Part shown: positions 13,052-36,106 of the stretch, one piece after another
Layout: each line of letters begins with the position of its first letter
Position numbering within the stretch: the stretch's first letter is position 1
NCBI GenBank assembly: GCA_000002445.1
Contig: CP000068.1
Span: 608,001 to 672,000 of the forward strand
Direction: 5' to 3'
DNA from: Trypanosoma brucei
Lineage: Eukaryota
Length of the DNA stretch: 64,000 nt
Translations under genes and position numbers: made by a program
The notes under the pieces: model-generated
What the model was told of the DNA's origin: nothing
Databases searched by the model: none
The model's input: only the letters and a program-made list of their open reading frames with translations

Positions 13052-14161
13052 TTGTTTTCACGGAGTCCACGAATAATGCGCCCCACCGGAGTACGCTGTC
13101 TTGCTTCACCCCTCAGCTTAATGAGAGTTACCGGAACCCCCAACACCGGCCCCCGTGTGTTGTCGCCTGATGGTACGAAATTTTCATGGGATCCCTACAG
13201 CGGTGCATCCGTTGATGGAAGTGAAGTTTTCACCCAGTCACCTCATCTCGCCGCGCAGTTCCCCGGTCACGCGTCTCCTATTCAACTCCCTCCGCCCAAT
13301 GTGGCGTCGGATGGTGTCTCTTTTGCATCGACACTTAATTGGCAATCTCAAGGGGATGGCGGAGCAGCATATGATTCCTCAGTTGTTGGGTACTGGGAAG
13401 AAACCGGTCCCAACCGTGGCGCACTGCGACTTGGTTCCGATGAACAACAACAACAGCAACAGCAACAACATCAGTTATATCGGACAGGCCCACTCGCGCA
13501 AACGTTCTTCCAGACGACCGGCAGCGGTGCACCTCCCTTCGACAACGCCGTTGTTACGCATGGTGATGCTAACTTTAATTCAGGTTTTGGTGTGGTGGCA
13601 TCGCCGCATCGCCCATCATCGCGAGCGGGACGTTACGGCACTTCACGTGGTGTTTCTTTATCCGCCTCTCGAGGAAGATCTTTTGAATCCACTCCATTAT
13701 GGGGCCACGGGCAATCCGGAGCCGCAGAGAGAAAGCTTCCATTTAGACGTATGATCCCTCCGCCCGTCCCTTATGAACTTGCATTGCGTCAACTCTCCCG
13801 TTCGGGTCTTGCCGATCCCGAAAGGGTTCTCGAAGGAATTCTTCGTCACTGGCACAGGTCTACACAAGTTGCAGTCGGTGTACTTCGTAGCGAAGCTGCT
13901 TCTTCAGTTGAGGAAAGTTGCCCGTCCCCTCCTTCAGGAAATGACCGCGAAGCAATAGTCGAATGGGTGACACGTTGCGAGGGATGGTGGCAACAGAATT
14001 TTGGAACCCAACCCCGCAGCGGTGCTGACCGGCAAAATGCGGCTCATACGTTTAATGGAAATCGGGGACACAGATCCAATGATGGAAGGCGTCCTCATAC
14101 ATCAGGGGCTGCAAGTAGGAATAATCATGCATTCGCCGGCATGAACGGAAGAAGGGGGTGA
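13052..14161 (+). CDS. hypothetical protein carrying a K-F-SWDPY motif and a poly-Q tract (possible paralogue of 8011-8805)
   Basis: 369 aa ORF on the cluster strand. The N-terminal GTKFSWDPY motif and a (Q)9 tract mirror the architecture of the 8011 gene. This is the last gene before the strand-switch region. Confidence 0.5.
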   Translation: MFSRSPRIMRPTGVRCLASPLSLMRVTGTPNTGPRVLSPDGTKFSWDPYSGASVDGSEVFTQSPHLAAQFPGHASPIQLPPPNVASDGVSFASTLNWQSQGDGGAAYDSSVVGYWEETGPNRGALRLGSDEQQQQQQQQHQLYRTGPLAQTFFQTTGSGAPPFDNAVVTHGDANFNSGFGVVASPHRPSSRAGRYGTSRGVSLSASRGRSFESTPLWGHGQSGAAERKLPFRRMIPPPVPYELALRQLSRSGLADPERVLEGILRHWHRSTQVAVGVLRSEAASSVEESCPSPPSGNDREAIVEWVTRCEGWWQQNFGTQPRSGADRQNAAHTFNGNRGHRSNDGRRPHTSGAASRNNHAFAGMNGRRG

Positions 14162-17100: not shown

Positions 17101-19859
17101 TGTTTTTTTTTTTTTGTGTGTGTGTGTTTGTTTGCCGCTGCTTCCCACGTTTCTTTATCTTTTTTTTTTAGAGGTAATAATAGTGTTGTTTTTGTTGTTG
17201 TTGTTGTTTTTTTTAATGCGAGAAAAGCGGAAGGAAAATTAGGAAGGAATGCGTTTAATTTCTTTTTTTAAAAAAAAAAAATAATAATAATCGTCATTAT
17301 TAATTTTTTTTGTCCCCGATGATTCCCATCCGTCACCATTTTTTTTTCTTTCCTTTTTTCTTTTTTTTTTTTGTTTATGTATTATTCGATTCGGTAAGTG
17401 CACAAAAAGACACCTTCGGGAACCGAAACCCTTAGTGGTAACCTGTTGTGGATTTTCCTTTTTTTTTCTTTTTTTTTTTGAAAGGAAAAGACAAAAATAA
17501 AAATAAAGGACAGAGCGGTGATTAAGTGAGCGATTAAAAAAAAAAAATAGAAGAAAAATATATACGAAGACATAGGAAAGAAACAAACATATATATATTA
17601 ATATGTTATATTTATATTATATTTATATATTATACAAGTTTCAATATGTATTCCAATCCTAAACAAGAGATGATAATGCACACACCGAAACGCAGAAACG
17701 GGTGCAATAATAATAAAAATAAAAGTAAAATAACAATAATAATAATAATAATGGTGGTGGTGATGGTGATGATTATGGAAATTGTTGTAAGACATTTATT
17801 ATTACAATAATTATTATGATCATCACAAGGCCCAATGAAGGGAGGGGGAAAAAAAAAGAAATAAAGTGAAACTTATAAAAACTCATTCCTTCCTATTCGA
17901 TCTTCCTACGAACATCTTTCAACGTAAGTGATAAAATTTGAGAAGTGAAAAAAAAACGAAAAGGAGACGCCAGTTAACACTTTCATGAAGTGGAGTTACT
18001 ATCTTGTTGTTACGAACCCGTGTTTTGTTTTTCCTCTTTCCTTCTCTATCTCTCTTTATTTTTATTTTTGTAACAAAACAGAAATAAATAAATAAGTGAG
18101 GTTTTTTAAATTTTAATTTTATTCATTGATGGATATATTTATATATTTATTTATATATGTTTATATTTATTTTTATTTTTCTCCCCCTTTCTTCCATTTC
18201 TTGAATTAGCAGCGGTTCCCACAAATACAAATACAAATACACCTCAACCTTAAATGATTATTTGGTGATGGTGATGATGATTAGAGTGGTACGAGTGACA
18301 CAACAACAACAAAAAAGAAAAAAAAGAAAAACACATAACATGACATAACATAAAATAAAATAAAATGCAGAAAAGGAAAAAGAAAAAGAATGCAAAGATA
18401 GAAAAGAAATAAAGCGAAGTGGCCGCCACTTTTGTTATCGATAAACGGAACCAATGCAAAAGCACAGGGTGAAAGGGACAGGAAAAAAAAAAAGGGAAAA
18501 GCGAAAACGAAAAAGGAAAAAAAAAAGTGACTAAAGGTATGTTTTTACATATTTCTCTGTATAGGAACTTATGTCGCGAATCGCCTGAAGAAAAAAAAAA
18601 GGGGCTAAAGAAAAATAGAAAGAAAGAACACAAAATGAACGAGGGAAATGAAAAGGTTTTTTTTTAAAAAAAAAGAAGCAGCAATCCGCTTCACTGTCAT
18701 CAGCTTTTTTTTTGTTTCTATTATTATTATTATTATTATTATGTTGTCTTTTACTGTTGTTGTTGTTGTTTCTTTCCCGTTTCTCCTACCTTATTTTCCT
18801 GGTCGTCGCTGATGCTGGAAATTCAAGAAAACACACACACAATTGAAAAAAAAAAAGCAAAAGCAATTAAATCAAAGGTGGTCACGGTTTCGCCAGGGTG
18901 ATGATCATATTTACAATAATTTTATCTTAGAAAGCTCTGGTGGTTAAATACAAGATGGAAGAGGGGATGGGAAAAAAAAAAAAGGAATACCGTGAACATA
19001 TATTACAGAGACCGGCTACTTGTGTAAATAAAAAGTGAAAAAAAAATCTTTTTTTTTTGGGGGGGGGTGGAGGGAGGGGGTTTCTCCCTATATTTATTTA
19101 TATTTGATATTTTTGTACCTTAAGATGCGGTATCGGTTGGGAGAATGGAGAGAGTTGGTGGGGAAAAAAATTGGGTCAAACATCAGAAAATGGAATGTGG
19201 GAAATTCGTATCAAACACTTAAGCGAAATTATCCAAATTTAACAAAGAAAAAAGGGAAAGTACTTTTTATAAATTTGTGATAGTACAAATGTTAACATGA
19301 ATAATTAATGAACCATAAACAAATGAATTTTAAATTCATTGGTGTTTGTACTTATATATATCTATATATTTACGGGTTTGCCATGTAGGCACTTTCTTGA
19401 GTTGAAAGGATGAAATTTCAGGGGTGGGGAGAAACAGCCGTTAAGGAGGAGTAAATAAAATGAATGAAAACAAAAACAGATGTATATAAACGTGCGTGTA
19501 AGCATAGCTGCATATTTATATTTGTGTGTTTTTGTTTTGTTTAAGTTCCTCCCCCTTTTTTGGCGGCGTACACCACGTAATTTTTCTCTTTTCCTCCGAT
19601 TTGTGTTGTGCGTGCGTATGTATGTGTATGTGTATGTGTGTGGTGGGGAGCAAAGCAAACGGAGGAGACGGGGAAATGGAAGGAAAATATTTAAAAAAAA
19701 AAGAAAAGACAAAGTAGAAGTGAGAGAAAGTAAAGAAACATAAATATAATGACACACCACCTTCCCATCTACCGGCTCCGTTTGAATTCTTTCAACTTTT
19801 CCATCCCTCGTTATTTTCAGGGAGCAGCTGTTGTTATCATTGTTATTACCTGTGATTGA

Positions 19860-19893
<34 letters not shown>

Positions 19894-22058
19894 GATGTTA
19901 TTCGTGTTCCCCTCCCTTTCTGTCCCACTTTCCCTCCTCTCTCTCTTTTTTTTTTTTTACCTCCGGTATTTCTGGTTTTCCGCTTATGTTTTTTCTTTCG
20001 AATTTCACTAAAGTAAACCACAACATCACAGTTATTTGATGTTGAACACCACCACCACCCCTTCCAAAAAAAAAAAAAAAAATCGAAAGCGGAGATAATG
20101 ACGATGAATGCGAGGAGAAGGTGTGATCGACGTTGCGATGGAAATGAATAGGAAAAAAAAAGGGGAACAATGATGTTAAGGAAAAAAAGCAGAAGAGAAA
20201 GAAAATGATGTCCTTCAGAGTGAAAACAACAGCAATAGTGACGATATGATAATAATTAACAAAAACAAGGATGGTGATGGCAATGATGATGTGAGAGAAA
20301 AGGAGAGAGAAAGAGTAGTGGAAATAAAGCGAGAGCCCGTGTACGAAAAAGAAGAGAAAAATTATATATGTATGCGAGAATATGTGCCTGTTTTCCCCCT
20401 ACAAGCTTTTTTTCCTTCTGCGCTTATCACTATTATTCATTTTTTTTATTTTTGCGCCATGGTGGTAGCGGATTTTAGTTAATGAAACGGGAAAAGAATA
20501 TATTGTTGTTTCTTCCGCTCCACCGACCTTACTTTTTTTTCATTTTTTTAAATTATTTTTGAAAATGCCATCGTTCGTTCTTTGATTAATCCGTCTTTTT
20601 TCCCCCGTCGTTTCGTTTGTCTTGTTTTGTTTTTCACTCGGTTTCTGTTTAACTTATTTCGTAGTGCAGGGTGAGGAGGTGGTCTGGGCCAATGAATAAT
20701 AATGACCATGCTAATGATAATAACGACAATACCAATTGGGGCAGTGGAACGCCGCTCCGGGAACATATAGCGAAGGACGAGGGCGGATAAGCGCAAGCAG
20801 AAGCAAAACTAGGGAAGGAACGTGGCGAGGCGGGCATATTCAAAAAAAACACATGAGAGTGCGCACAATGCCGTTTGCACGCATGAGGATACATGCATAT
20901 ATTTTTATATGTATGTTGTTTCACTTAAAATATATATTTACATATACGTATATATTTTTAAAAGAATGCGTGTGTCCCGTCATCTCGTCGTCACACGTAG
21001 CCACCGGCTCGTGGACATGCGAGTGAAAACGGGTGCGGATGAGCATGCATGTGCGGTTGTGCGCGCGGGCGCGACTGCGTATGAATGTTTGCGACCGCCT
21101 GAACATGTTCGCAAATGTGTGTCCGGTGCCGGCGCACATTTGTGTGATATGATCATGGGTGATGGTGCGCGAGCAAAAGCATTCATCCAGCAACATGTAT
21201 GGTGCGTCGGTGGAAATACCGAGTTCCTCCAAGGGAACGTGAGCAGGGTCTCATGTTTTTTGAGGAAACCGGCCCGCCGGCGCCCGCGCTCCGGCGGGTG
21301 CACACTCGCATCATGGGATCACGCTTTAGTGTGCGTTTTTGAATATGCCTGCCACAACCCCGATCCAGTAGTTTTGTCTTTTCCTAAGCGTTGTAGCGTG
21401 CGCGGGGCGGGTCCCGTCATATACACGAGGACGTGCGCCTTCGCGGATGGAAATGGGTGGGGGTTTTGTGTGTGTCGTTTCCTTTAGCGATTAGCATTTG
21501 GTGGGCTTCGCTGAGGATGCAAAACGTCAGCACACCCCCCGCTTATTCCTATCTTGGAATGAGAAGAAAAGCACGCGCGCGTTTCGATCGCGGCCCTTTG
21601 GCGGTTGTTTGCCCTGTATCGGCCCTTCGATGCGATCGTGTCTTGTTCCTTTCACGAAGCACGCCGCTCATCCCCCCTTTGAAATTTGGGCTCAAATCGC
21701 CGTGTCGGTTTCCGGTTCGCGGTAGTCCCTTCTTTTCCCACCCCAAGAGGAGTCCCCAAGCTTTTTACCCCTTTTTAAAATTAAAATAATAATTTTCGGC
21801 CCTGGCGATCCCCGACCCTCGACTTCAGTAATCACCGAGTCCCATCGACCTGCTTTCTTCCACATCAAATTTTGAGCACCCCCCCCCTTTCTGCTGCTTT
21901 TTGCTGATACGCCCCCCCGGCCGCCCGCCGCTTTCTCCTCCGTCTCTTAACATCACCCCCCTCCCCCCATTCCTCCTTTTCTTTCATAGCATAGGTTATG
22001 CCCGCCCGGCCCCGCGCCCTTCCGCCACCACCCCCCCCCCGAACCGGCGCCCGTCACG

Positions 22059-24566
22059 GCCGCCCGACTTGCCACGGAAACATTCCTTCGCAACAGACGT
22101 CTCCCCCCCCCCCCCAACCCGGACACCCGACGGCGACCCCATTGAAACGCGCCCCTCTCGTTCTTACCGGTGAACAAGCTGTCCCCGCTCGGCACTCAAC
22201 CCTTCTGTTGCCCCACCTGCTTTTCTTTCACCTTTCTCGCCAAAAAATAAAATAAAATAAGGGAAAGCCACGCCGCGCGGTCGCGACGAGCGCGTTTTCA
22301 AAAGAAAAAAAGATTAGCTCAGGCGGAACCGTATCTCTCGTTTCGGAGAGGTTCTTTTTTATCATCTTTTAGAGAAAATTCGCCCAACGCCCGAAATCAT
22401 GGCGGGTTTCAATATCGACGGAAGGGTCGGACACCCCGGCCGGCTCTCGGGTCCGCCGGGGCGTGTACCGGTGCCTCAAAGTGGCCACCCGAACCCGGTG
22501 GCGGTTTATTGGCAGGCCGCGCCCTTCCCCGTGACCGCGGCATTCGCTGCCCCCCAACTCGTCGGGCCACCCCCCGTCTTTTTTTACCGAAGGGGGGCAA
22601 ACCACCCGGGTCCCGCCCCCCGACCACCAGCACCACCCCCTCGCCGTCATTTGGGAGTCGGCCCGAGCCCGCCGCCGCCTCGCTTTCGCGAAAACCGCAA
22701 TTTGTTTTCGGCGGGGGAGGTGGTTGGTTTCATTCGGTTGGCCCGGCGATGGGATGAAAAGGTAGCGGGGAGAGGGGCCGCCCATCACGCCCGCGGACCT
22801 CCGAATTTCGAATGGCCGCCGGAACCCGAGGACCCCTGGAAGGTTTTGGAGGATTGGTCGGAAACCCGAGCACGGTGGTGGCGCACCAGTCGGGCGGATC
22901 ATCGGGCACCGCGGCGCCGCCGGCCCTCAGGACCCCGCAGCAAAAAAAAAAATTTAAGACCTTTGGAAAAGGGGGTCGAGGTGCCTCGTCACTGATCCCC
23001 CCTCGCCCACGGTGTTTGAAAAAGCGACGACGCTGCCCGCCCACCCGCATTTTTTAAAAACGCGGTTCTTTTCGAAAACTCTAACATATCCTTTCCTGTT
23101 CGAAAAAACGTGCCGCTGTTCACAAACAGCCGCCACCCCTTTGCTACTCCAAAAAGCGTGAAGCTTTTTTGAATACAGGATATTGTCCCTTTTCCCTTCC
23201 CTTCGAAACAAATGGTGACTGTTCAGCACCGGTCCCCCGCTGCCCGTGTTCGGAAGGGGGCCTCGCCTTGCCTTACCTTGCCTCACCCAGCCCCACCTTG
23301 CCTCACCCAGCCCCACCTTGCCTTGCCTTTAAACGGAATACAAAAAACCTCATTCCCCCCGCACAAAAGTTCGCCCCTGGCGCGGTTAAGAGGTCCGGCG
23401 CAACGCTCCGCTTGCGTGGAGGGGGGCGAAGGTGGCCCGGGTGGAACCCGTCAGATTTTTTCCTTAGGAATTAGCCACGGGGCGGCATCGCCTTTGGGCC
23501 CGGCTACTCGCCGCCGGCAAGGAGAGTGGCCCCGCGACACACCCCCGATGAGGGCGGCTGCGATGACCGCCACGCCCTGGCGACGCCGGCCACCTCCACG
23601 TGGTGCCAGGGTCCAGTACCCCGCATCATCGGGGGAAGCCAAGAGCCAGCAGAGTTCCTTTCATGGGGAACACTGCTGTGCTCTGGCCTCGGCATCATAC
23701 AGCACAGGGATCAGCAGCGTCTTGCTGGGACACCGTTTTTCATTTGTCGGTCCCTGGGTCCGTGCCAGCGTGCCATCAGCAGTATCATCCGCACTAAGAT
23801 GCTGCTGTCCGGTGATGTGGAACTCCAAAAAAAAGGATTGCCAATTGACATCTTTTGGAGAGTCCGGGGTGGGAGGCCTCTCGCCCCATCTGCTGTATTC
23901 CGTTCAAATGCGGAAATACAACAAAAAATTATAGAGGGTGTGTTAGGATGAATGAAAAAGGGAGACTCTGCCACAGTCGCCAGACCGATAGCATCTCAGG
24001 GCTCTACGGTGATGGCTGATGGCCGCGCCAGTGGGGGGAAACTCTCACGAAGGCACGAAGAAAATTTCAAAAAAAAAAAAATGACCGTCACGGTGTTTGC
24101 GGCCGCCAACACGCCCGCGCATGGGTTTTTGGCTGCGTTTTCAAGGAGGATGAAGGGACACACGAGTTGGACGGCGGGGGATCAGGAACCCGCGGCGCCG
24201 GAAAAATGCGTTCGAATGTTTTGTTTGAGGGCGCCAAAGCACGCCTCGGGGGGTCGGGATGGCGGACGCCGATTTGCCCACTGCATCGGCGCTATGGGGA
24301 CGCGTGCTGGGGGCCCTAAGGCGGGTGAAAGTTCTGGGGAAACGGAAAGTTTGGCCTTCCGAAAAATGAAAGACGGCGGCGCCGGCGCCCCGGGTTTGCC
24401 ATAAGAAAACATCGAACCTTTATTTTTCTTTTAACCCCCGCATCATTGAGGGCGTTTCGCCGCACGACACCACCGGGGCGGCGCCGTGTCGGACAAAAAC
24501 CGGGCTAAGGGGGCGAGGCACCCCCATCGCTTTCGTCGAGACCCGGGAACCCCCCTTCCGTACGGC
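22059..24566. repeat. repeat unit 1 (2508 bp); carries an extra 20 bp internal duplication
   Basis: cctcacccagccccaccttg is present twice at 23281-23320 and once in units 2 and 3. This accounts for most of the period difference. Several SNPs and A-run length differences separate unit 1 from units 2 and 3. Confidence 0.9.
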
Positions 24567-27053
24567 GCCGCCCGACTTGCCACGGAAACATTCCTTCGCA
24601 ACAGACGTCTCCCCCCCCCCCCAACCCGGACACCCGACGGCGACCCCATTGAAACGCGCCCCTCTCGTTCTTACCGGTGAACAAGCTGTCCCCGCTCGGC
24701 ACTCAACCCTTCTGTTGCCCCACCTGCTTTTCTTTCACCTTTCTCGCCAAAAAATAAAATAAAATAAGGGAAAGCCACGCCGCGCGGTCGCGACGAGCGC
24801 GTTTTCAAAAGAAAAAAAGATTAGCTCAGGCGGAACCGTATCTCTCGTTTCGGAGAGGTTCTTTTTTATCATCTTTTAGAGAAAATTCGCCCAACGCCCG
24901 AAATCATGGCGGGTTTCAATATCGACGGAAGGGTCGGACACCCCGGCCGGCTCTCGGGTCCGCCGGGGCGTGTACCGGTGCCTCAAAGTGGCCACCCGAA
25001 CCCGGTGGCGGTTTATTGGCAGGCCGCGCCCTTCCCCGTGACCGCGGCATTCGCTGCCCCCCAACTCGTCGGGCCACCCCCCGTCTTTTTTTACCGAAGG
25101 GGGGCAAACCACCCGGGTCCCGCCCCCCGACCACCAGCACCACCCCCTCGCCGTCATTTGGGAGTCGGCCCGAGCCCGCCGCCGCCTCGCTTTCGCGAAA
25201 ACCGCAATTTGTTTTCGGCGGGGGAGGTGGTTGGTTTCATTCGGTTGGCCCGGCGATGGGATGAAAAGGTAGCGGGGAGAGGGGCCGCCCATCACGCCCG
25301 CGGACCTCCGAATTTCGAATGGCCGCCGGAACCCGAGGACCCCTGGAAGGTTTTGGAGGATTGGTCGGAAACCCGAGCACGGTGGTGGCGCACCAGTCGG
25401 GCGGATCATCGGGCACCGCGGCGCCGCCGGCCCTCAGGACCCCGCAGCAAAAAAAAAAATTTAAGACCTTTGGAAAAGGGGGTCGAGGTGCCTCGTCACT
25501 GATCCCCCCTCGCCCACGGTGTTTGAAAAAGCGACGACGCTGCCCGCCCACCCGCATTTTTTAAAAACGCGGTTCTTTTCGAAAACTCTAACATATCCTT
25601 TCCTGTTCGAAAAAACGTGCCGCTGTTCACAAACAGCCGCCACCCCTTTGCTACTCCAAAAAGCGTGAAGCTTTTTTGAATACAGGATATTGTCCCTTTT
25701 CCCTTCCCTTCGAAACAAATGGTGACTGTTCAGCGCCGGTCCCCCGCTGCCCGTGTTCGGAAGGGGGCCTCGCCTTGCCTTACCTTGCCTCACCCAGCCC
25801 CACCTTGCCTTGCCTTTAAACGGAATACAAAAAACCTCATTCCCCCCGCACAAAAGTTCGCCCCTGGCGCGGTTAAGAGGTCCGGCGCAACGCTCCGCTT
25901 GCGTGGAGGGGGGCGAAGGTGGCCCGGGTGGAACCCGTCAGATTTTTTCCTTAGGAATTAGCCACGGGGCGGCATCGCCTTTGGGCCCGGCTACTCGCCG
26001 CCGGCAAGGAGAGTGGCCCCGCGACACACCCCCGATGAGGGCGGCTGCGATGACCGCCACGCCCTGGCGGCGCCGGCCACCTCCACGTGGTGCCAGGGTC
26101 CAGTACCCCGCATCATCGGGGGAAGCCAAGAGCCAGCAGAGTTCCTTTCATGGGGAACACTGCTGTGCTCTGGCCTCGGCATCATACAGCACAGGGATCA
26201 ACGGCGCCTTGCTGGGACACCGTTTTTCATTTGTCGGTCCCTGGGCACGTGCCAGCGTGCCATCAGCAGTATCATCCGCGCTAAGATGCTGCTGTCCGGT
26301 GATGTGGAACTCCAAAAAAAAAGGATTGCCAATTGACATCTTTTGGAGAGTCCGGGGTGGGAGGCTTCTCGCCCCATCTGCTGTATTCCGTTCAACTGCG
26401 GAAATACAACAAAAAATTATAGAGGGTGTGTTAGGATGAATGAAAAAGGGAGACTCTGCCACAGTCGCCAGACCGATAGCATCTCAGGGCTCTACGGTGA
26501 TGGCTGATGGCCGCGCCAGTGGGGGGAAACTCTCACGAAGGCACGAAGAAAATTTCAAAAAAAAAAAATGACCGCCACGGTGTTTGCGGCCGCCAACACG
26601 CCCGCGCATGGGTTTTTGGCTGCGTTTTCAAGGAGGATGAAGGGACACACGAGTTGGACGGCGGGGGATCAGGAACCCGCGGCGCCGGAAAAATGCGTTC
26701 GAATGTTTTGTTTGAGGGCGCCAAAGCACGCCTCGGGGGGTCGGGATGGCGGACGCCGATTTGCCCACTGCATCGGCGCTATGGGGACGCGTGCTGGGGG
26801 CCCTAAGGCGGGTGAAAGTTCTGGGGAAACGGAAAGTTTGGCCTTCCGAAAAATGAAAGACGGCGGCGCCGGCGCCCCGGGTTTGCCATAAGAAAACATC
26901 GAACCTTTATTTTTCTTTTAACCCCCGCATCATTGAGGGCGTTTCGCCGCACGACACCACCGGGGCGGCGCCGTGTCGGACAAAAACCGGGCTAAGGGGG
27001 CGAGGCACCCCCATCGCTTTCGTCGAGACCCGGGAACCCCCCTTCCGTACGGC
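24567..27053. repeat. repeat unit 2 (2487 bp)
   Basis: Aligned by eye to unit 1 and unit 3. It differs from unit 3 at only a handful of positions, for example catcatacagc versus catcgtacagc. Confidence 0.9.
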
Positions 27054-29467
27054 GCCGCCCGACTTGCCACGGAAACATTCCTTCGCAACAGACGTCTCCC
27101 CCCCCCCCCCAACCCGGACACCCGACGGCGACCCCATTGAAACGCGCCCCTCTCGTTCTTACCGGTGAACAAGCTGTCCCCGCTCGGCACTCAACCCTTC
27201 TGTTGCCCCACCTGCTTTTCTTTCACCTTTCTCGCCAAAAAATAAAATAAAATAAGGGAAAGCCACGCCGCGCGGTCGCGACGAGCGCGTTTTCAAAAGA
27301 AAAAAAGATTAGCTCAGGCGGAACCGTATCTCTCGTTTCGGAGAGGTTCTTTTTTATCATCTTTTAGAGAAAATTCGCCCAACGCCCGAAATCATGGCGG
27401 GTTTCAATATCGACGGAAGGGTCGGACACCCCGGCCGGCTCTCGGGTCCGCCGGGGCGTGTACCGGTGCCTCAAAGTGGCCACCCGAACCCGGTGGCGGT
27501 TTATTGGCAGGCCGCGCCCTTCCCCGTGACCGCGGCATTCGCTGCCCCCCAACTCGTCGGGCCACCCCCCGTCTTTTTTTACCGAAGGGGGGCAAACCAC
27601 CCGGGTCCCGCCCCCCGACCACCAGCACCACCCCCTCGCCGTCATTTGGGAGTCGGCCCGAGCCCGCCGCCGCCTCGCTTTCGCGAAAACCGCAATTTGT
27701 TTTCGGCGGGGGAGGTGGTTGGTTTCATTCGGTTGGCCCGGCGATGGGATGAAAAGGTAGCGGGGAGAGGGGCCGCCCATCACGCCCGCGGACCTCCGAA
27801 TTTCGAATGGCCGCCGGAACCCGAGGACCCCTGGAAGGTTTTGGAGGATTGGTCGGAAACCCGAGCACGGTGGTGGCGCACCAGTCGGGCGGATCATCGG
27901 GCACCGCGGCGCCGCCGGCCCTCAGGACCCCGCAGCAAAAAAAAAAATTTAAGACCTTTGGAAAAGGGGGTCGAGGTGCCTCGTCACTGATCCCCCCTCG
28001 CCCACGGTGTTTGAAAAAGCGACGACGCTGCCCGCCCACCCGCATTTTTTAAAAACGCGGTTCTTTTCGAAAACTCTAACATATCCTTTCCTGTTCGAAA
28101 AAACGTGCCGCTGTTCACAAACAGCCGCCACCCCTTTGCTACTCCAAAAAGCGTGAAGCTTTTTTGAATACAGGATATTGTCCCTTTTCCCTTCCCTTCG
28201 AAACAAATGGTGACTGTTCAGCGCCGGTCCCCCGCTGCCCGTGTTCGGAAGGGGGCCTCGCCTTGCCTTACCTTGCCTCACCCAGCCCCACCTTGCCTTG
28301 CCTTTAAACGGAATACAAAAAACCTCATTCCCCCCGCACAAAAGTTCGCCCCTGGCGCGGTTAAGAGGTCCGGCGCAACGCTCCGCTTGCGTGGAGGGGG
28401 GCGAAGGTGGCCCGGGTGGAACCCGTCAGATTTTTTCCTTAGGAATTAGCCACGGGGCGGCATCGCCTTTGGGCCCGGCTACTCGCCGCCGGCAAGGAGA
28501 GTGGCCCCGCGACACACCCCCGATGAGGGCGGCTGCGATGACCGCCACGCCCTGGCGGCGCCGGCCACCTCCACGTGGTGCCAGGGTCCAGTACCCCGCA
28601 TCATCGGGGGAAGCCAAGAGCCAGCAGAGTTCCTTTCATGGGGAACACTGCTGTGCTCTGGCCTCGGCATCGTACAGCACAGGGATCAACGGCGTCTTGC
28701 TGGGACACCGTTTTTCATTTGTCGGTCCCTGGGCACGTGCCAGCGTGCCATCAGCAGTATCATCCGCGCTAAGATGCTGCTGTCCGGTGATGTGGAACTC
28801 CAAAAAAAAAGGATTGCCAATTGACATCTTTTGGAGAGTCCGGGGTGGGAGGCTTCTCGCCCCATCTGCTGTATTCCGTTCAACTGCGGAAATACAACAA
28901 AAAATTATAGAGGGTGTGTTAGGATGAATGAAAAAGGGAGACTCTGCCACAGTCGCCAGACCGATAGCATCTCAGGGCTCTACGGTGATGGCTGATGGCC
29001 GCGCCAGTGGGGGGAAACTCTCACGAAGGCACGAAGAAAATTTCAAAAAAAAAAAATGACCGCCACGGTGTTTGCGGCCGCCAACACGCCCGCGCATGGG
29101 TTTTTGGCTGCGTTTTCAAGGAGGATGAAGGGACACACGAGTTGGACGGCGGGGGATCAGGAACCCGCGGCGCCGGAAAAATGCGTTCGAATGTTTTGTT
29201 TGAGGGCGCCAAAGCACGCCTCGGGGGGTCGGGATGGCGGACGCCGATTTGCCCACTGCATCGGCGCTATGGGGACGCGTGCTGGGGGCCCTAAGGCGGG
29301 TGAAAGTTCTGGGGAAACGGAAAGTTTGGCCTTCCGAAAAATGAAAGACGGCGGCGCCGGCGCCCCGGGTTTGCCATAAGAAAACATCGAACCTTTATTT
29401 TTCTTTTAACCCCCGCATCATTGAGGGCGTTTCGCCGCACGACACCACCGGGGCGGCGCCGTGTCGG
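27054..29467. repeat. repeat unit 3, truncated (2414 bp)
   Basis: Identity with unit 2 ends after gtgtcgg at 29467. Unique sequence follows (tggtgaaatgttagtgggg...). Confidence 0.9.
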
Positions 29468-32400
29468 TGGTGAAATGTTAGTGGGGCGTTTAGCGCGTGC
29501 CAAGTGGGGTGAGGTTATCCAATTTGGAAAGGTGCATACCTGGTGGGGTGGGGTTGGCGATAGGTAGTCCTCGGAGGGTCTCGTTGTCCGCATCAGTCGT
29601 TGCGTATGATGGTCTTTTTGCGCAATTTCATTGTGAAATTGTCGTCGTTGGTCTTGTTTATGGAATTGCTGAAGTGTTCGGTAAATGCCCTAATTGTCTC
29701 CTGTTGTTGGTGGTGGTGGGGAGGGAAGATTCGACTCTCCCTTTTTCCCAAGCCCCCACAATAATTTACGACGGATGATGTAATCTTTTACTGGAAGTGG
29801 GGCTGTCGCCGAAAGCTTTGTCCTAACACCCCTCAATTTGTTCGCATTCCCTCTTGTCCTCGCCTTGCTTCTTGCGGTGGTGTGTGTTATGTAGGTTTCT
29901 GAACGCTACGGTTTCAAACAGCCGCATTTCCGTTCAAACATGTTTAGTGTCGGATAATTTCCGACACCGCATATCTGTTTCCTTAGCTTCTCCACTCTAA
30001 ATGTCCGGTTTAAAATATACTTTTATACTTAGCCATTGAACTTCTCTGCTGCGTTTCTGATTCTTCATGCTCCTCCACTGGTTTGTGGCCTTTGGTAGTG
30101 GGAATTTTTGAGGGAAAGTAACACCAACTCCCGTAACGTCGTCGCTATGGAATTCAGGCCTGTGGTTGCTATGTCGCTGGATTAGCGCTACGGTAACGAA
30201 AAAGCACGATGCCCCATTTTTTAATCCACATTGCTCAAATCTTCCCACATGCTCACGGGGATGTGAAGGAGACGGACATAGAAGACTTTTTATCGTTCTT
30301 TCCCAAATTTTAACCAAATTTCCTCCTCCACCAATTATTGAAGATCCTTTGGAAGAGACCCCCCTCCAGCCCTTTACATCACCCAATTTTCTTGGAAACT
30401 TCTTGCTTGATTCTCTGACGAGGAGCATCCTCTACCGAGATAAGTTTCGCCTCCTCCATTGCCAACAAACACAAGCGTCCCGGGGACTATCGGAAAGCGT
30501 TGATATTCTTGTTGGATTAATAAAGCTGAAAAAAAAAAGCCCAACCTTCCTGCGACAAGCCCTGCTGTCCCTACGGCCGTGTATCCAATGTATCTCAACC
30601 TTTTCAACTCTCCTCTTCACTTTATTCCCCACGCGCTTCAAAAATATCGTAATTCCTTTGTGAAAGGCTCGGATATTAACGTCCTCCTCCTTTCTTCTAA
30701 CCCTCAAAATTCTCAACTCCATCAACTTGACAGTACCTTCACTCTCTCACTTTCTCTGTTTCGCATTTCGTTTCCGCATGGGTGAAGGCGTACAGCGATT
30801 TCGACCCTTTTTTGCCGCACCAAAAAGTGCGTGTTCACCGTCGCTAAAACTCAACCTTTCGCCGTCTACGGCCACAGAACTTCCAAAGAGAAGGAACACA
30901 GCCACCGACACTCTCGTATCCGCATATGAAATACGCGTGTTTCCGCGGAGTCGAGGGGAAAAGCCGTGACAGCCATTTTAGGGAGTACGCGAAGGGTGGG
31001 GCGGCTTCAACGAGAATGGATATTCTCCTTTGTTGACTGTTATTTTCTGCTTATTGGGCAACACCGGGGTGGAAGTGATGACGATTGATGGGAGAAGGGA
31101 AAGTGATACGAACAGGAACGTTTATATTTAACTTTCCCCGAATAACATGGCTAGGAAGATGGGCTGAACCGCGTCGATGAGACGTACCAATCGGGGCGCC
31201 AGGAGACCCACGTAGAAATGCGAGCATGGATGCGGGTGTGACCGTGGTGTGGGGCTTTTGCTCTGGGGAGGTGAAGGAACTGCGCGAAACTGCCAGGAGT
31301 TCGCCTCGTCCTCCCAGCTGTTGCCTGCGTGAGGGAAGTTTTTATGGCCAACTGAAATGGAGAGTCATAACCACATTCTATTTGGCGAATGAGCACAATA
31401 ATGGCAGGGATTCGTTTAGGACAACAGCGGTGACGAGAGCGGGGAGCATACTCACGGCGCGAATGTTAGTTGGGAAGCTTCAATATTCTATGGAAGAACG
31501 GCAAAAAGTACAGTTGTCTGTTTTCTGCCAACAAAGGTTCACCACCAGCCCCACCGCACAACTAATGATGCGAGCAAGGTGTGTGCAAATACAAAATAGG
31601 AACTGAACGGTGGGAATTACACCATTTTGCGCATGGACTATTGGTGAACACTTGAAAACATCATTTGGGGACAACCCTCTACCGTTACAAAGTCTAAAGG
31701 GGAAAAAGCAAAGAAACGCAACGCGACCGCGTTGTGACACAAGTTCCATGTGCGTTGAAAGTTGAATCTGGAAAATCGGCTCTGTCAAGCACCGGTGACG
31801 AGCACACGGCGATGGAAGTAAAGGAACTGGCAACCATTCGAAGTCGGAAATGTCAAGGTTCACTTGTTCTCTCTTGCATGTTTCGCGGTGAGCGGGCTCC
31901 AAGGAGAAATGAGACTATTGGACGCAACGTATTAGCCAACCTTGAAGGTGAGAGACGCACAACAACGGGGAACATTGGGACATTTTCAGTTCGCACACCC
32001 ATTAACACCCAGCACGCACCCTCTGTGGCTAGTTGAAGGATGGGTAGATACGCACAGTTTCTTAAACGCAAACTCCGCCGTCTTCCTCATTCGAAACCGT
32101 TGACGGCAATCGACCTCATTCACCACACTTCCAATAACGCAGAGTTTTTATTGCGGGAAAGATCAAGCACCTTCAGGTTGCACCTTCTTCCTCCTTCAAT
32201 ACCACCAATGCGCATCGGCGATTTCCCTGCTGCCCACGCGCTGTTCCCAGGTTTGTGCATTCGCGACGGCGTCGCCTGCTGTCGCCACGATGCGCACGAA
32301 ACCATTTGGCGGAAGCACACCCTCAATGTCACTTCCCCTTTCCCCTGCGAATTCTCACTACACGCACAGGACGACGGTGCCATCGATCCGACACTAATCA

Positions 32401-33496: not shown

Positions 33497-36106
33497 TTAA
33501 CCTTCGCGGCGCCGGACTACGGCAAAAGACGGCCTTCCATGAGAACAGACGCTGTACTGGCCCACGGCCCTCAATGAATCAACTAACAGTTTTGCGTGCT
33601 CATCCTTGATGCGGTCCCCAAACATTATGGCACCGCGGCAAGAGCGAGTGACGAAGAACTGCAATACAGCCGATGGTATTACTCTGAATTCGTGGTGGCG
33701 CCGGTGTCGTTCACAATTATCGCCCTCCGGGGTGTTCGTGGCGCGGAGGGCGGAAACATGTGATGCAGGGAAAACTGCTGCAATCTCTTCCAGCGTTTGG
33801 CGAAGAGCACAAACGGTGTCTAGCACAAGCCGGTGCCCCTCCAAAGTGAGACAGGGCCATTGTGTAATGGTATCAAAGAGTTTCCTCGGACATGGGGTGT
33901 CCGGAAAATCGATGGTAGCTTCTGGAAAGCAAGCCAAATTTGGTTGCGGTGTGTTGTGTGAGAAGCGCCAGCCCCAACGCTTGAGAGCACCCTCATAAGC
34001 AGCAACGCAATGCCGCATGTCATGAGGTATTTTTACGGGGAAGGTTGTTAAAGACGGTTGCGGCTCCACATACGACTCTGCGTGGGCCAGGAAGTATTCG
34101 AGGCGCAAGCGCTCATGAATAGCGTGCTGATCTGTGATGAACAACTTGGGGGGGATAGGCGAATGTCGACTTTCGGTTGCTGTTGCTCGTGCGGATGGGA
34201 GCCGCTGTTCATTGCACTCTGTCGACGCAGTGTCGTTCAATCCCGCTGCATCGCCCGTGTCAAGCAAGAGAAACTTACGATCCCACTGCGCCAAAAAATG
34301 ATTACCACGAAACGGACAAATAATCGGCTCGTTCTCGTCCGGAGCTTCCCCTCCCCTCCAAACAACGGGGCAACGGAATATCCGGGGCACAATGCACGAC
34401 GGTTTCGGTGCAACTGGCATGGCGGTACGGGCCCGCGGGAGGGTATCAGCCGAGGGCACTGGCTTCATCAACGTATATGGACAGAAGGGCGTCCGGCGGG
34501 GGACCGAGGCAGCGGCGGCATTGATTCCCCCGATTGCGCGACTTGTTGCCGGGACGGAAACTGTGGACGCGAGCTGTCTGGCCAAAAATGACACTCGCAC
34601 CCCAGTGGCCACTGCATTGTGAGACTCTTTACCTTCGGTTTTTGTGAGAACTTTTCTGACGGTGGGGAGGTCATCTTCATCCGAGCCGCGTTTGGGGTTA
34701 TTCCCGTTTGCTCTATGGGGAATCCGACCGACACCTGGAACGTGCTGCTGCACGACCGCCTGAAACATCCGTTTGAGCTGGGCATCCCTTCCCTCCAACA
34801 GCTTCCCGTCCACGAAGACAAATAGGGGATGCAGTGATTTAGGGAGCGTTGCCAAATGACGGTACACGCGGTGCCGTTCATCAACAACGTAACATTCACC
34901 GGAGACCGGGTCCGCGGACAAAATAAGTACGGAACCAAGGCAATTGTAAGCGTGTCTGCAGAGACCGGTACCGACGTGCGTTTCACAATGCGGCGCATGA
35001 TACACCATAGCAAACTTGGCACGTGCTACAACAACTTCTCGAAGGCACAAAGTTTCCGCGTTGTTTCCAAGTCCCAACGCCACGGCCAACTGGCTGAGGT
35101 GCGGCAGGAAAGCTTGCAACAAACGGTAAACGGTAGAAAGGGTTTCCGATTCCCCACCTGCGTGGGCGTACTCGCGCTTCCGTTTGACCAACGAATCTAC
35201 CCCCGCCCCATCGCCCGATCTTGAAGCCCCTATGAACACTACACTGGCTGTATCGTATGCTGCTCTTCCCCCCTCGGCGATGACATCGCTTAGGCGAAGG
35301 TACACTGAGGTGGCCCGACGCCCCCCTCCCTGTGGTAAGAGATAAAAAGGTGCCAAGATCCGCTCCGCGGCCACGCGATACGCAACCATAACCACTGCCT
35401 GCCGTTCGCTTCGCATCCGATTGTTGAAACCCCCGCGTGATTGGAGTGCAATGCGGCGTCGCACAGGCATGTTGCAGAAGAGGCCGATAACCTCACACTG
35501 TAACTTGATCAGTGAGGAACATTTGGCGATGCGGTCGGCACACGAACATCGACACCACTGTTCAGCTCGTTCTCCAATGGGGATAAGAACTTCCGACAAA
35601 ACGTCTTTCCCTTTCAGTGGTGAACAAGAGGTCCAGCGACCTTCGTAGAGCACGCATGCGTGATGCGGGGGCGAGGGGACTCCAGCACGCGAGCGCTCTG
35701 CTAGAACTTCGACATTAACTCGCAACTTAACCTCTTGACTTACCACTGTCAAATGCGCGAGGGAAGCGGCATCGATTGCGTCGTCGCCCTCGAGCGATAT
35801 TTGTTTAACATTTTCGACTCTACTACAGCATGGGGGGAGCTCAAACAGCAGATCCAGCAGAAAGTTTAGGTCGCGCGGGTCCGCCACAACCCGAATGTGA
35901 CGCGCCACACTCCCTACACCGAGCAAGCGAAGGAATTGATACGCAGCTTCCACAGCAACAGCGAACGTCGGCAAATAGTGCGCAGCGCGTACTCTCGCTG
36001 CGTCAAATGCACCCAATGGCTCAATGGTGGTACATATACCGCGTTCCGGTGTGCATGCAGACGGAGGAAATGGGGATCCTCCGCGAAATTTCGTTTCCAT
36101 CAGCAT
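33497..36106 (-). CDS. MLH3: MutL-family mismatch-repair/crossover endonuclease, MLH3-like (C-terminal endonuclease domain); the N-terminal ATPase is not recognisable
   Basis: 869 aa ORF. The metal-binding endonuclease motif DQHAIHERLRLE matches the MutL DQHA(X)2E(X)4E motif and closely resembles human MLH3 DQHAAHERIRLE. Downstream, SCRGAIMFGD matches MLH3 ACHGAIKFND, and the C-terminal CSHGRPSF matches the MutL CxHGRP motif. Confidence 0.75.
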   Translation of the reverse strand: MLMETKFRGGSPFPPSACTPERGICTTIEPLGAFDAARVRAAHYLPTFAVAVEAAYQFLRLLGVGSVARHIRVVADPRDLNFLLDLLFELPPCCSRVENVKQISLEGDDAIDAASLAHLTVVSQEVKLRVNVEVLAERSRAGVPSPPHHACVLYEGRWTSCSPLKGKDVLSEVLIPIGERAEQWCRCSCADRIAKCSSLIKLQCEVIGLFCNMPVRRRIALQSRGGFNNRMRSERQAVVMVAYRVAAERILAPFYLLPQGGGRRATSVYLRLSDVIAEGGRAAYDTASVVFIGASRSGDGAGVDSLVKRKREYAHAGGESETLSTVYRLLQAFLPHLSQLAVALGLGNNAETLCLREVVVARAKFAMVYHAPHCETHVGTGLCRHAYNCLGSVLILSADPVSGECYVVDERHRVYRHLATLPKSLHPLFVFVDGKLLEGRDAQLKRMFQAVVQQHVPGVGRIPHRANGNNPKRGSDEDDLPTVRKVLTKTEGKESHNAVATGVRVSFLARQLASTVSVPATSRAIGGINAAAASVPRRTPFCPYTLMKPVPSADTLPRARTAMPVAPKPSCIVPRIFRCPVVWRGGEAPDENEPIICPFRGNHFLAQWDRKFLLLDTGDAAGLNDTASTECNEQRLPSARATATESRHSPIPPKLFITDQHAIHERLRLEYFLAHAESYVEPQPSLTTFPVKIPHDMRHCVAAYEGALKRWGWRFSHNTPQPNLACFPEATIDFPDTPCPRKLFDTITQWPCLTLEGHRLVLDTVCALRQTLEEIAAVFPASHVSALRATNTPEGDNCERHRRHHEFRVIPSAVLQFFVTRSCRGAIMFGDRIKDEHAKLLVDSLRAVGQYSVCSHGRPSFAVVRRREG

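What the first reader, a model, noticed from the sequence alone, without database searches (positions are those of the whole stretch)
22040..29467. High-identity GC-rich 2.5 kb tandem array sitting at the convergence point of two polycistronic units
Three head-to-tail copies of a ~2.49-2.51 kb unit, about 98-99% identical, form the centre of a ~12 kb island of higher GC. That island lies between a '+' gene cluster and a '-' gene cluster.

The array is unlikely to be protein-coding. The unit yields Pro/Arg/Gly-rich ORFs on both strands, which is typical of GC-rich non-coding DNA. These ORFs change frame between copies where A-runs differ in length: A8 at 23824-23831 versus A9 at 26314-26322.

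I see no tRNA B-box, no spliced-leader sequence and no rRNA-like stretch. The unit length and composition do not match repeat families I know from trypanosomes, which are SL RNA arrays, 5S arrays, the 177 bp and 147 bp satellites, the 195 bp satellite and the 50/70 bp repeats.

Candidate roles are a Pol II termination or chromatin-boundary element, a centromere-associated repeat (centromeres in trypanosomes map to strand-switch regions), a replication origin, or a tandemly amplified ncRNA locus.
Basis: partly seen in the sequence, partly recalled or inferred. Interest (0 to 1): 0.85.

Follow-up and report, generated by a model that had tools for sequence, protein, structure and literature searches.

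The report
RIME-bearing non-coding tandem repeat, trypanosome
The three-copy 2.5 kb repeat is real, but it is non-coding DNA in a gene-free transcription-termination zone of Trypanosoma brucei chromosome 5, each copy carries a known mobile element (RIME), and nothing points to a centromere or a dedicated RNA gene.

Summary
The array is real. It spans window 22059-29467 in three head-to-tail units of 2508, 2487 and 2414 bp.

The window is T. brucei brucei TREU927 chromosome 5. The array lies between the last + gene (ends 14161) and the last - gene (ends 33497), about 19 kb upstream of GMP reductase (Tb927.5.2080).

It has the Pr77/79-bp signature, a poly(A) tail and a 12-bp target-site duplication. 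In two other strains the rightmost unit has the empty site.

The other 1.98 kb of each unit is 61% GC and looks non-coding:
- It has no codon periodicity.
- It matches no Pfam or Rfam family and no protein family.
- It shows no excess RNA structure.

Copy number and retroposon content differ between strains. The block is 3-5% diverged between subspecies, against 0.2-0.8% in adjacent non-coding DNA.

The chromosome 5 centromere was mapped elsewhere, at Tb927.5.600-610. Published small-RNA data show a strong siRNA locus at what is probably this strand-switch region; that link rests on position only.

Verdict: a retroposon-invaded tandem duplication kept uniform by concerted evolution, tolerated in a termination zone. 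It is of modest interest. The origin of the GC-rich part is unexplained.

The parts
22059..29467 (.). Whole tandem array, about 2.97 units
   Evidence: Self-BLAST pairs 22059-26979 / 24567-29467 at 99.25% and 22059-24492 / 27054-29467 at 98.65%. Repeat families have spacings of 2507 and 2488.
22059..24566 (.). Unit 1 (2508 bp, including the 74-bp linker at 24493-24566). It carries one extra 20-bp minisatellite copy.
24567..27053 (.). Unit 2 (2487 bp, including the 74-bp linker at 26980-27053)
27054..29467 (.). Unit 3 (2414 bp, no linker after it). Its non-RIME part is 100% identical to that of unit 2 apart from one poly-C length difference.
23575..24081 (+). RIME retroposon copy 1 (507 bp). 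Pr77/79-bp signature at 23575-23652 and A13 tail at 24069-24081.
   Evidence: nhmmer Pr77 hit with E=1e-20. 94% identity to nt 11-45 of L1Tc Pr77 (Pr77 sequence from PMC1874656). Boundaries.
26062..26568 (+). RIME retroposon copy 2 (507 bp)
28550..29056 (+). RIME retroposon copy 3 (507 bp). The site is empty in the rightmost unit of T. b. gambiense DAL972 and T. b. equiperdum IVM-t1.
23563..23574 (+). Upstream copy of the 12-bp target-site duplication ATGACCGCCACG. It also occurs at 26050-26061 and 28538-28549.
   Evidence: The empty sites hold a single copy of the 12-mer.
24081..24092 (+). Downstream copy of the target-site duplication, (A)TGACCGTCACG. It also occurs at 26568-26579 and 29056-29067, where it reads (A)TGACCGCCACG.
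24493..24566 (.). 74-bp inter-unit linker (second copy at 26980-27053). It is absent after unit 3 and is not derived from either flank.
   Evidence: The same linker joins two units in DAL972.
23260..23323 (.). 10/20-bp minisatellite (GCCTCACCTT / ACCTTGCCTCACCCAGCCCC). Unit 1 has one extra 20-bp copy, which explains the 2508 versus 2487 bp unit lengths. Shorter versions lie at 25767-25810 and 28255-28298.
21000..22058 (.). Unique GC-rich left flank (GC about 0.54) that shares the raised between-strain divergence of the array
13076..14161 (+). Last convincing gene of the + transcription unit (361 aa)
   Evidence: It shows period-3 signal.
33497..36106 (-). Last gene of the - transcription unit (869 aa). 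It is identical to T. b. brucei TREU927 XP_844876.1.

Best explanation
The feature is a strain-variable tandem duplication of non-coding DNA in the gene-free zone where two RNA polymerase II polycistronic units converge on T. brucei chromosome 5.

Each TREU927 unit has two parts. One is about 1.98 kb of GC-rich sequence of unknown origin. The other is a 507-bp RIME retroposon on the + strand.

Steps shown:
1. The GC-rich segment sits at this locus in every Trypanozoon assembly examined.
2. It was already duplicated in tandem, with a 74-bp filler at the junction, before T. b. brucei and T. b. gambiense split.
3. An ingi-clade element inserted into one unit by target-primed reverse transcription. 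The evidence is a 12-bp target-site duplication, a poly(A) tail, and empty sites that persist elsewhere.

Steps inferred:
4. Unequal crossing-over or gene conversion homogenised the TREU927 array. All three units now carry the RIME, and their non-RIME parts are 99.9-100% identical.
5. The RIMEs later exchanged sequence with dispersed RIME/ingi copies.
6. The array has no sequence-specific function of its own. It persists because a termination zone tolerates insertions and duplications.
7. Read-through from both transcription units, together with the RIME copies, probably makes it a source of DCL2-dependent siRNAs in H3.V/base-J chromatin.
For: Locus identity:
- The 869-aa protein is identical to TREU927 XP_844876.1.
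- GMP reductase lies at 48344-49819 on the - strand. The literature gives it as Tb927.5.2080 (PMC4701174).

RIME:
- Length is 507 bp.
- The Pr77 signature is 75% identical to L1Tc Pr77 over 77 nt, and 94% over nt 11-45.
- There is an A12-13 tail and a 12-bp TSD.
- Empty sites with one copy of the 12-mer exist in DAL972 and IVM-t1.
- In DAL972 the RIME 3' half follows directly on a C2H2 zinc-finger ORF, which I take to be ingi coding sequence.
- These features fit published descriptions. RIME is ingi with its central 4.7 kb deleted (PMC2323293). The 12-bp TSD is typical of Tbingi/TbRIME (PMC3820030).

Non-coding:
- Period-3 signal is 1.1-3.1 across the array, mostly 1.1-1.8, against about 4-10 in most flanking genes sampled.
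- No Pfam family is hit in any of six frames.
- No protein relative exists apart from the same ORF called in another Trypanozoon sequence.
- Substitutions show no third-codon-position excess.

No structured RNA:
- Rfam gives no credible match and there is no tRNA.
- No C-box-like motif has a D box at snoRNA spacing.
- Folding z-scores are -1.1 and +0.9.

Concerted evolution and turnover:
- Within-array identity of the non-RIME parts is 99.9-100%, against about 97% to DAL972 and IVM-t1.
- 12 of the 15 differences among units lie in the RIME.
- Between-strain divergence is 3-5% over 21000-29600, against 0.2-0.8% over 30000-33500.
- Copy number and retroposon content differ between assemblies.

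siRNA, linked by position only:
- Tb927_05 CTU13 (630.6-639.8 kb) gave 2401 AGO1-bound small RNAs from both strands, falling to about 1% in dcl2-/- cells (PMC3447711 supplementary file 3).
- The Lister 427 chromosome 5 region 632018-645237 has the highest small-RNA RPM of the chromosome 5 regions in that table (PMC4721609 S2 Table).
Against: - The 61% GC of the non-RIME part is far above T. brucei non-coding DNA (41% for the rest of the genome, PMC2323293). It also exceeds every T. brucei retroposon family (RIME 53.8%, ingi 52.3%, DIRE 48.7%). Its origin is unexplained, so 'neutral by-product' is a default rather than a demonstration.
- Among polarised single-lineage changes, S>W and W>S are roughly balanced per site (16 against 10). 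The GC content is therefore not obviously decaying, which leaves room for biased gene conversion or selection.
- The link to the published siRNA and cSSR coordinates rests on position only.
- No expression, chromatin or replication data could be examined for the array itself.
- The IVM-t1 single-copy state may be an assembly collapse.
Confidence: 0.62

Rival explanations
1. The GC-rich unit is a functional Pol II termination or chromatin-boundary element. It would nucleate H3.V/H4.V/base J or stall polymerase, for example through its C/G runs, and its copy number would tune that effect.
For: - It sits where the two transcription units converge.
- Each unit has a C12-13 run and one G-quadruplex-type motif on the - strand.
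- The GC-skew sign changes near 21000.
- Published work places H3.V and J at T. brucei convergent strand-switch regions, and small RNAs at this probable region change in the H3.V knockout (PMC4721609).
Against: - The block diverges 4-10 times faster between subspecies than the adjacent non-coding DNA.
- Copy number ranges from 1 to 3, and one unit is interrupted by a full ingi in DAL972.
- Termination marks are reported at T. brucei convergent strand-switch regions generally (PMC4721609). From my own knowledge, most of those regions have no comparable repeat. Position alone therefore explains any such marks.
- G-quadruplex motif density is only one per unit.
Confidence: 0.14
2. The array is a tandemly amplified gene for a long or small non-coding RNA: a lncRNA, a snoRNA cluster or another Pol II/III product.
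For: - Trypanosome snoRNA clusters and other highly expressed RNA genes are tandemly repeated (general knowledge).
- A TB5Cs1 snoRNA cluster exists somewhere on chromosome 5 (PMC9283944).
- Near-identity of the copies is compatible with a dosage role.
Against: - Rfam gives nothing at the gathering threshold. At E<=5 it gives only seven far-below-threshold matches, which I read as chance.
- No C-box-like motif has a D box at snoRNA spacing.
- Folding energy is no better than shuffled sequence on either strand.
- Between-strain divergence is high and spread along the unit. The longest invariant run is 99 columns.
Confidence: 0.07
3. The block is a recombination or gene-conversion hotspot. GC-biased gene conversion would have driven the GC content up, and mutagenic recombination would explain the fast divergence. 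The tandem array would be a consequence of this.
For: - High GC, raised divergence with a sharp edge near 29.6 kb, and concerted evolution occur together.
- The unique left flank (21000-22058) is also GC-rich and fast-evolving.
- W>S and S>W changes are about balanced per site despite 61% GC.
Against: - The substitution counts are very small (26 polarised changes) and were polarised by majority rule without an outgroup.
- 19 of 21 shared-site patterns split the strains into two old haplogroups. Deep coalescence at this locus could produce that as well.
- No recombination map was available.
Confidence: 0.1
4. The array is a centromere-associated repeat.
For: - Trypanosome centromeres map to strand-switch regions that hold retroelements.
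- T. cruzi centromeres are GC-rich strand-switch domains (PMC1868937).
Against: - The T. brucei chromosome 5 Topo-II cleavage site and its 148-bp AT-rich array lie between Tb927.5.600 and Tb927.5.610. Activity is focused at a single locus per chromosome (PMC1868937).
- This locus is near Tb927.5.2080.
- The window contains no 147/148-bp array.
Confidence: 0.01
5. The array is an assembly duplication or a contaminant.
For: The non-RIME parts of units 2 and 3 are identical.
Against: - The three RIME copies differ at 2 to 11 positions.
- DAL972 independently has the unit-linker-unit junction.
- One OVI contig ends at the left array edge. The other enters the right edge by 236 bp and then diverges.
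- An independent Logan contig (ERR7929156) carries the unit with its RIME junction.
- There is no plasmid match.
Confidence: 0.02

Closest known systems
RIME (ribosomal mobile element), the non-autonomous partner of the ingi non-LTR retroposon of T. brucei
   Same: This applies to the 507-bp segment of each unit. It has the right length, the 5' Pr77/79-bp signature, a 3' poly(A) tail and a 12-bp target-site duplication. Its 3' half is contiguous with what I take to be ingi coding sequence in another strain, and the site is filled in some units and empty in others.
   Different: It accounts for only about 20% of the unit. The remaining 1.98 kb has no retroposon hallmark: no second Pr77 and no RT, endonuclease or RNase H remnant. 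RIMEs are normally dispersed single insertions. Here one insertion has been multiplied by tandem duplication of its host sequence.
siRNA-producing convergent transcription units of T. brucei (Tschudi et al. 2012; Reynolds et al. 2016)
   Same: It is a gene-free zone between converging Pol II units. The published region at the matching chromosome 5 position gives DCL2-dependent small RNAs from both strands, and it has the highest small-RNA level of the chromosome 5 regions listed.
   Different: From my own knowledge, most such regions have no large tandem repeat. Part of the small-RNA signal may simply be multi-mapping ingi/RIME siRNAs. The coordinate match is inferred, not demonstrated.
T. cruzi centromeric GC-rich strand-switch domains with degenerate retroelements (Obado et al. 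2005, 2007)
   Same: It is a GC-rich, gene-free strand-switch domain about 9-12 kb long that contains ingi/L1Tc-clade elements.
   Different: It is a different species, and the T. brucei chromosome 5 centromere is mapped to an AT-rich 148-bp array about 140 gene positions away. There is no evidence of Topo-II or kinetochore association here.
Low-copy macrosatellites or tandem segmental duplications kept uniform by concerted evolution
   Same: It has a kilobase-scale unit and few copies. Copies within the array are far more alike than copies from different strains, and copy number differs between strains.
   Different: No coding or known regulatory content has been identified. GC content is unusually high for the host genome.

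Membership tests
RIME / ingi-clade retroposon (507-bp segment of each unit) | Conserved 77-79 nt signature (Pr77 hallmark) at the 5' end | tested here: met
   The element starts CCCTGGCG... It is 75% identical to L1Tc Pr77 over 77 nt and 94% over nt 11-45. nhmmer gives E about 1e-20. There are exactly three hits in the window, one at the 5' end of each element.
RIME / ingi-clade retroposon (507-bp segment of each unit) | About 0.5 kb long with an A-rich 3' end | tested here: met
   Each element is 507 bp and ends in A12-A13. RIME is given as 0.5 kb in PMC2323293.
RIME / ingi-clade retroposon (507-bp segment of each unit) | 12-bp target-site duplication | tested here: met
   ATGACCGCCACG flanks all three copies, with one mismatch in copy 1. 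Empty sites in DAL972 and IVM-t1 hold one copy. A 12-bp TSD is stated for Tbingi/TbRIME in PMC3820030.
RIME / ingi-clade retroposon (507-bp segment of each unit) | Made of the two ends of ingi, with the central 4.7 kb deleted | tested here: inconclusive
   In DAL972, nt 252-507 of the element follow directly on a C2H2 zinc-finger ORF, as expected if a full ingi sits at that site. The ORF's identity as ingi coding sequence rests on my own knowledge, because no reference ingi or RIME sequence was available for direct alignment. The 5' end of that ingi is hidden by a 100-N gap.
T. brucei centromeric repeat domain | AT-rich tandem array of about 30, 120 or 147 bp units | tested here: not met
   TRF finds no array scoring >=150 anywhere in the window. 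The unit here is 2.5 kb and 60% GC.
T. brucei centromeric repeat domain | Coincides with the single Topo-II cleavage or kinetochore site of the chromosome | not testable with these tools
   Published mapping puts the chromosome 5 site between Tb927.5.600 and Tb927.5.610 (PMC1868937). This locus is next to Tb927.5.2080.
Trypanosomatid snoRNA gene cluster | C/D boxes (RUGAUGA ... CUGA about 60-100 nt apart) or single-hairpin H/ACA-like (AGA box) genes within the repeat unit | tested here: not met
   For C/D boxes, none of the seven C-box-like motifs in the unit has a CTGA 45-140 nt downstream. The only Rfam snoRNA match is ceN44, at 20 bits against a threshold of 70. H/ACA-like genes were not searched for specifically.
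siRNA-producing convergent strand-switch region | Lies between the 3' ends of two converging polycistronic units | tested here: met
   ORF orientation, period-3 signal and Pfam content of the flanking genes.
siRNA-producing convergent strand-switch region | 21-27 nt, DCL2-dependent small RNAs from both strands | not testable with these tools
   The evidence is published only. CTU13 on Tb927_05 gave 1122 top-strand and 1279 bottom-strand reads, falling to 1.1% in dcl2-/- cells. The Lister 427 chromosome 5 region 632018-645237 has 333 RPM in wild type. Assignment to this locus is by position.
Protein-coding tandem gene array | Conserved ORF with codon periodicity and purifying selection | tested here: not met
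   Period-3 signal is at the non-coding level. Substitutions by codon position are 2/8/6 and 7/6/2 for the two longest ORFs. There are no relatives outside Trypanozoon.

The most novel reading that the evidence does not exclude
The 61% GC, fast-evolving block (window about 21000-29600) is not passive. It would be either a recombination or biased-gene-conversion hotspot, or a sequence that helps set up the termination, H3.V/J and siRNA domain of this strand-switch region. In either case tandem copy number would act as a strain-variable dial.
Probability: 0.12. Interest if true: 0.55.

Novelty: new member of a known kind. Interest (0 to 1): 0.25.

Why it matters
The main value is as a correction. 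An apparently orphan repeat at a strand-switch region turns out to be a known retroposon (RIME) riding on a tandemly duplicated non-coding segment, and the centromere idea is excluded by published mapping.

It also gives a compact natural record of several processes at one locus:
- retroposon insertion, with filled and empty sites in neighbouring units;
- RIME or ingi occupying the same site in different strains;
- array homogenisation;
- probable ectopic conversion of the RIMEs.

Such a locus could serve as a strain marker.

The one real oddity is the 61% GC, rapidly diverging 2-kb sequence of unknown origin in a 41% GC genome. If it proved to be a recombination hotspot or a determinant of termination chromatin, it would bear on how trypanosome transcription units are bounded. 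Nothing found here requires that.

Tried and rejected
**Searches that found nothing**
- Rfam found nothing at gathering thresholds on the whole window. At E<=5 on 20500-33500 it gave only far-below-threshold matches.
- ARAGORN found no tRNA.
- Pfam on all six frames of a unit at E<=1 found nothing, so the non-RIME part is not recognisable as DIRE, VIPER or SLACS.
- A word-seeded protein search with the five longest unit ORFs concatenated found nothing.
- Full HMMER of the 198-aa ORF against 1.84 billion representatives found only a 96%-identical 198-aa ORF. I take it to be the same ORF called in another Trypanozoon sequence.
- A C/D-box scan found no candidate.
- RNA folding of 1 kb on both strands gave z-scores of -1.1 and +0.9.
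- A sensitive self-BLAST for diverged unit copies in the flanks found none.
- The 74-bp linker shows no real similarity to either flank.
- blastn of the non-RIME part against plasmids found nothing.

**Dead ends**
- Exact-protein look-ups of the unit ORFs and of the TREU927 869-aa protein were not on record.
- A protein search with the ingi-like zinc-finger ORF gave no hits. It did not help identify the ORF and used the last search of that kind.
- A search for orthologues of the 869-aa flanking gene in other trypanosome species returned only the Trypanozoon cluster. Synteny in T. congolense, T. vivax and T. cruzi could not be examined.
- Replication-origin coordinates were not given in the text of Tiengwe et al. 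2012.
- G-quadruplex motifs occur only once per unit.

Full report
**1. Observation**

The repeat is real.
- Repeat finding and self-BLAST give one head-to-tail array at window 22059-29467. Units start at 22059, 24567 and 27054.
- Neighbouring copies are 99.2% identical, and copy 1 against copy 3 is 98.6%.
- Unit lengths are 2508, 2487 and 2414 bp.
- The first two units end in a 74-bp linker (24493-24566 and 26980-27053). It is missing after unit 3 and resembles neither flank.
- GC is 0.57-0.63 in the array, against 0.28-0.35 in the left flank.
- The raised-GC block runs from about 21000 to 30000, so it is nearer 9 kb than 12 kb. The coding region to the right is itself 0.50-0.57.
- Long ORFs are on + up to 14161 and on - from 33497, so the array lies in a convergent strand-switch region.

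**2. Where the window comes from**

- The 869-aa protein at 33497-36106 (-) is identical to XP_844876.1 of T. brucei brucei TREU927, on a 1.608-Mb record that I take to be chromosome 5.
- The IMPDH/GMP-reductase-family ORF at 48344-49819 (-) matches a T. equiperdum OVI protein exactly. The literature gives T. brucei GMP reductase as Tb927.5.2080 (PMC4701174).
- The array is therefore part of the reference genome of a well-studied organism.

**3. Anatomy: a RIME in every unit**

Comparison with T. b. gambiense DAL972 (L007) and T. b. equiperdum IVM-t1 (L008) showed that their rightmost unit lacks about 507 bp. The two BLAST segments overlap by 12 bases at the breakpoint.

In TREU927 that segment lies at 23575-24081, 26062-26568 and 28550-29056. 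Its features are:
- It begins CCCTGGCG(A/G)CGCCGGCCACCTCCACGTGGTGCCAGGGTCCAGTAC...
- It ends in A12-13.
- It is flanked by the 12-mer ATGACCGCCACG.
- The empty sites in the other two strains hold one copy of the 12-mer.
- Its first 77 nt align with the L1Tc Pr77 sequence printed in PMC1874656. Identity is 75% overall and 94% over nt 11-45. An nhmmer profile finds exactly three hits in the window, one at each element start, with E about 1e-20.

Published descriptions match these features.
- RIME is a 0.5-kb element that equals ingi with its central 4.7 kb deleted. It carries the 79-bp signature and an A-rich tail (PMC2323293).
- Tbingi and TbRIME make 12-bp target-site duplications (PMC3820030).

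In the left DAL972 unit, the 3' half of the element (nt 252-507) follows directly on an ORF with C2H2 zinc fingers. I take this to be the C-terminal part of the ingi ORF, from my own knowledge. That is what a full-length ingi at the same site would look like.

I conclude that each TREU927 unit carries a RIME on the + strand.

**4. The other 1.98 kb of each unit**

It is 60.8% GC, against 54.4% for the RIME. [quoted passage not shown]

It shows no sign of coding.
- The period-3 signal is 1.1-3.1 across the array, mostly 1.1-1.8. Most flanking genes sampled give about 4-10.
- No Pfam family is hit in any frame at E<=1.
- No protein relative exists in 5.8 billion clustered proteins.
- Full HMMER of the 198-aa ORF finds only a 96%-identical 198-aa ORF, which I take to be the same ORF called in another Trypanozoon sequence.
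- Substitutions between strains fall 2/8/6 and 7/6/2 by codon position in the two longest ORFs.

It shows no sign of a structured RNA.
- Rfam gives nothing credible and there is no tRNA.
- No C-box-like motif has a D box at snoRNA spacing.
- Folding is no better than shuffles on either strand, with z of -1.1 and +0.9.

No second Pr77 is present. Plasmids give no match. Its origin remains unexplained.

**5. Comparison between strains**

- The T. equiperdum OVI short-read assembly is disrupted at both edges. One contig ends at window 22040. The other enters unit 3 by 236 bp and then continues in unrelated sequence.
- DAL972 has one partial ingi-bearing unit, the same 74-bp linker, and one RIME-less unit. 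It also has a 100-N gap.
- IVM-t1 shows one RIME-less unit. This could be a collapse.
- An independent Logan contig (ERR7929156) has the unit with the RIME junction.

The tandem arrangement therefore predates the brucei/gambiense split, and the retroposon insertion came after it.

Within TREU927 the non-RIME parts are 99.9-100% identical, but they are only about 97% identical to DAL972 and IVM-t1. This is the pattern expected from concerted evolution. Of the 15 differences among the three TREU927 units, 12 lie in the 507-bp RIME. I read this as later exchange with dispersed RIME/ingi copies, which is an inference.

Between-strain divergence is 3-5% over 21000-29600, including the unique left flank. 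It drops sharply to 0.2-0.8% over 30000-33500. At shared variable sites, 19 of 21 patterns group TREU927 with ERR7929156 against DAL972 with IVM-t1. Two old haplogroups therefore exist at this block.

**6. Context from the literature**

- *Centromere.* Topo-II cleavage maps the T. brucei chromosome 5 centromere to a 148-bp AT-rich array between Tb927.5.600 and Tb927.5.610, with activity focused at a single locus per chromosome (PMC1868937; see also PMC3292466). The window has no such array. The centromere idea is therefore contradicted.
- *Small RNAs, procyclic forms.* Tschudi et al. list a convergent unit CTU13 at Tb927_05 630.6-639.8 kb. It gave 2401 AGO1-bound small RNAs from both strands, falling to 1.1% of wild type in dcl2-/- cells (PMC3447711 supplementary file 3).
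- *Small RNAs, bloodstream forms.* Reynolds et al. list a 13.2-kb region at Lister 427 chromosome 5 632018-645237. It has the highest small-RNA level of the chromosome 5 regions in that table: 333 RPM in wild type and 619 in the H3.V knockout (PMC4721609 S2 Table).

I assign these published regions to this locus by position only. Three things support the assignment:
- the DAL972 coordinate is about 588 kb and the IVM-t1 coordinate about 681 kb;
- interpolation from gene numbers gives a similar position;
- the region length matches.

ingi/RHS sequences are the largest siRNA source in T. brucei. The three RIMEs may therefore account for part of this signal.

**7. Explanation**

The best-supported reading is a retroposon-invaded tandem duplication of non-coding DNA in a transcription-termination zone. 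It is kept uniform within a strain by unequal exchange and has no demonstrated function of its own.
- Shown: the tandem structure and its age, the retroposon insertion with filled and empty sites, and the non-coding nature.
- Inferred: homogenisation, ectopic conversion of the RIMEs, siRNA production and the lack of function.

Rivals, in order of remaining plausibility:
1. a functional termination or boundary element;
2. a recombination or biased-gene-conversion hotspot;
3. an ncRNA array;
4. an assembly artefact;
5. a centromere.

A replication-origin role could not be tested.

**8. Limits**

- No T. brucei genome-wide search was possible. I cannot say whether the GC-rich 2-kb sequence occurs elsewhere in the genome or in other trypanosome species.
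- No expression, chromatin or replication track could be read at the locus.
- The element was not aligned to a reference RIME or ingi sequence.

Noticed in passing
L004 19450-21215 (T. equiperdum OVI contig CZPT02001483.1); breakpoint at window 29232: The OVI contig follows the right flank 236 bp into unit 3 and then continues in unrelated sequence. The first roughly 850 bp are GC-rich and the rest AT-rich. This could be a real rearrangement, another insertion or a chimeric contig.
   Followed up: partly
L007 20188-20780 (T. b. gambiense DAL972), joined at window 22021: 593 bp of unrelated sequence sit between the left flank and a 100-N gap, where the start of the array should be. It is not the RIME/ingi 5' end, so the DAL972 structure left of the ingi is unresolved.
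   Followed up: partly
window 23575-24081, 26062-26568, 28550-29056: The RIME copies hold 12 of the 15 differences among the three units: about 2% substitutions, against about 0.1% in the rest of the unit. This suggests the RIMEs exchange sequence with RIME/ingi copies elsewhere in the genome.
   Followed up: partly
window about 21000-29600, compared with 30000-33500: Divergence from DAL972 and IVM-t1 changes sharply, from 3-5% to 0.2-0.8%, near 29.6 kb. Shared variants define two haplogroups: TREU927 with ERR7929156 (the OVI flanks are near-identical to TREU927) against DAL972 with IVM-t1.
   Followed up: partly
window 7726-8805 (+) and 13076-14161 (+): The last two + strand genes both encode glutamine-run proteins with a (K)(Y/F)SWDPY motif. 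Tb927.5.1990, an 'unknown, poly(Q)' protein reported as an MKT1 interactor (PMC3985637), is probably one of them.
   Followed up: no
window 14200-20800: About 6.5 kb of very AT-rich (28-31% GC), low-complexity DNA precedes the GC-rich block. It includes (TTA)36 at 16126-16233 and several TA/AT-rich microsatellites. The gene-free zone is therefore about 19 kb in all and sharply two-part in composition.
   Followed up: no
window 20822-21487 (+): A 221-aa ORF in the GC-rich left flank overlaps a 192-aa gene call in T. equiperdum (L006 17822-18400). It has weak period-3 signal and lies in the fast-diverging block, so it is probably not a real gene.
   Followed up: no
window 37466-38680 (-): A 404-aa protein with no Pfam match. 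By gene-number counting back from GMP reductase it would be Tb927.5.2030, an identifier that occurs in a 2026 preprint on trypanosomal Oxa1 insertases. I did not read the context there, and the numbering is inferred.
   Followed up: no
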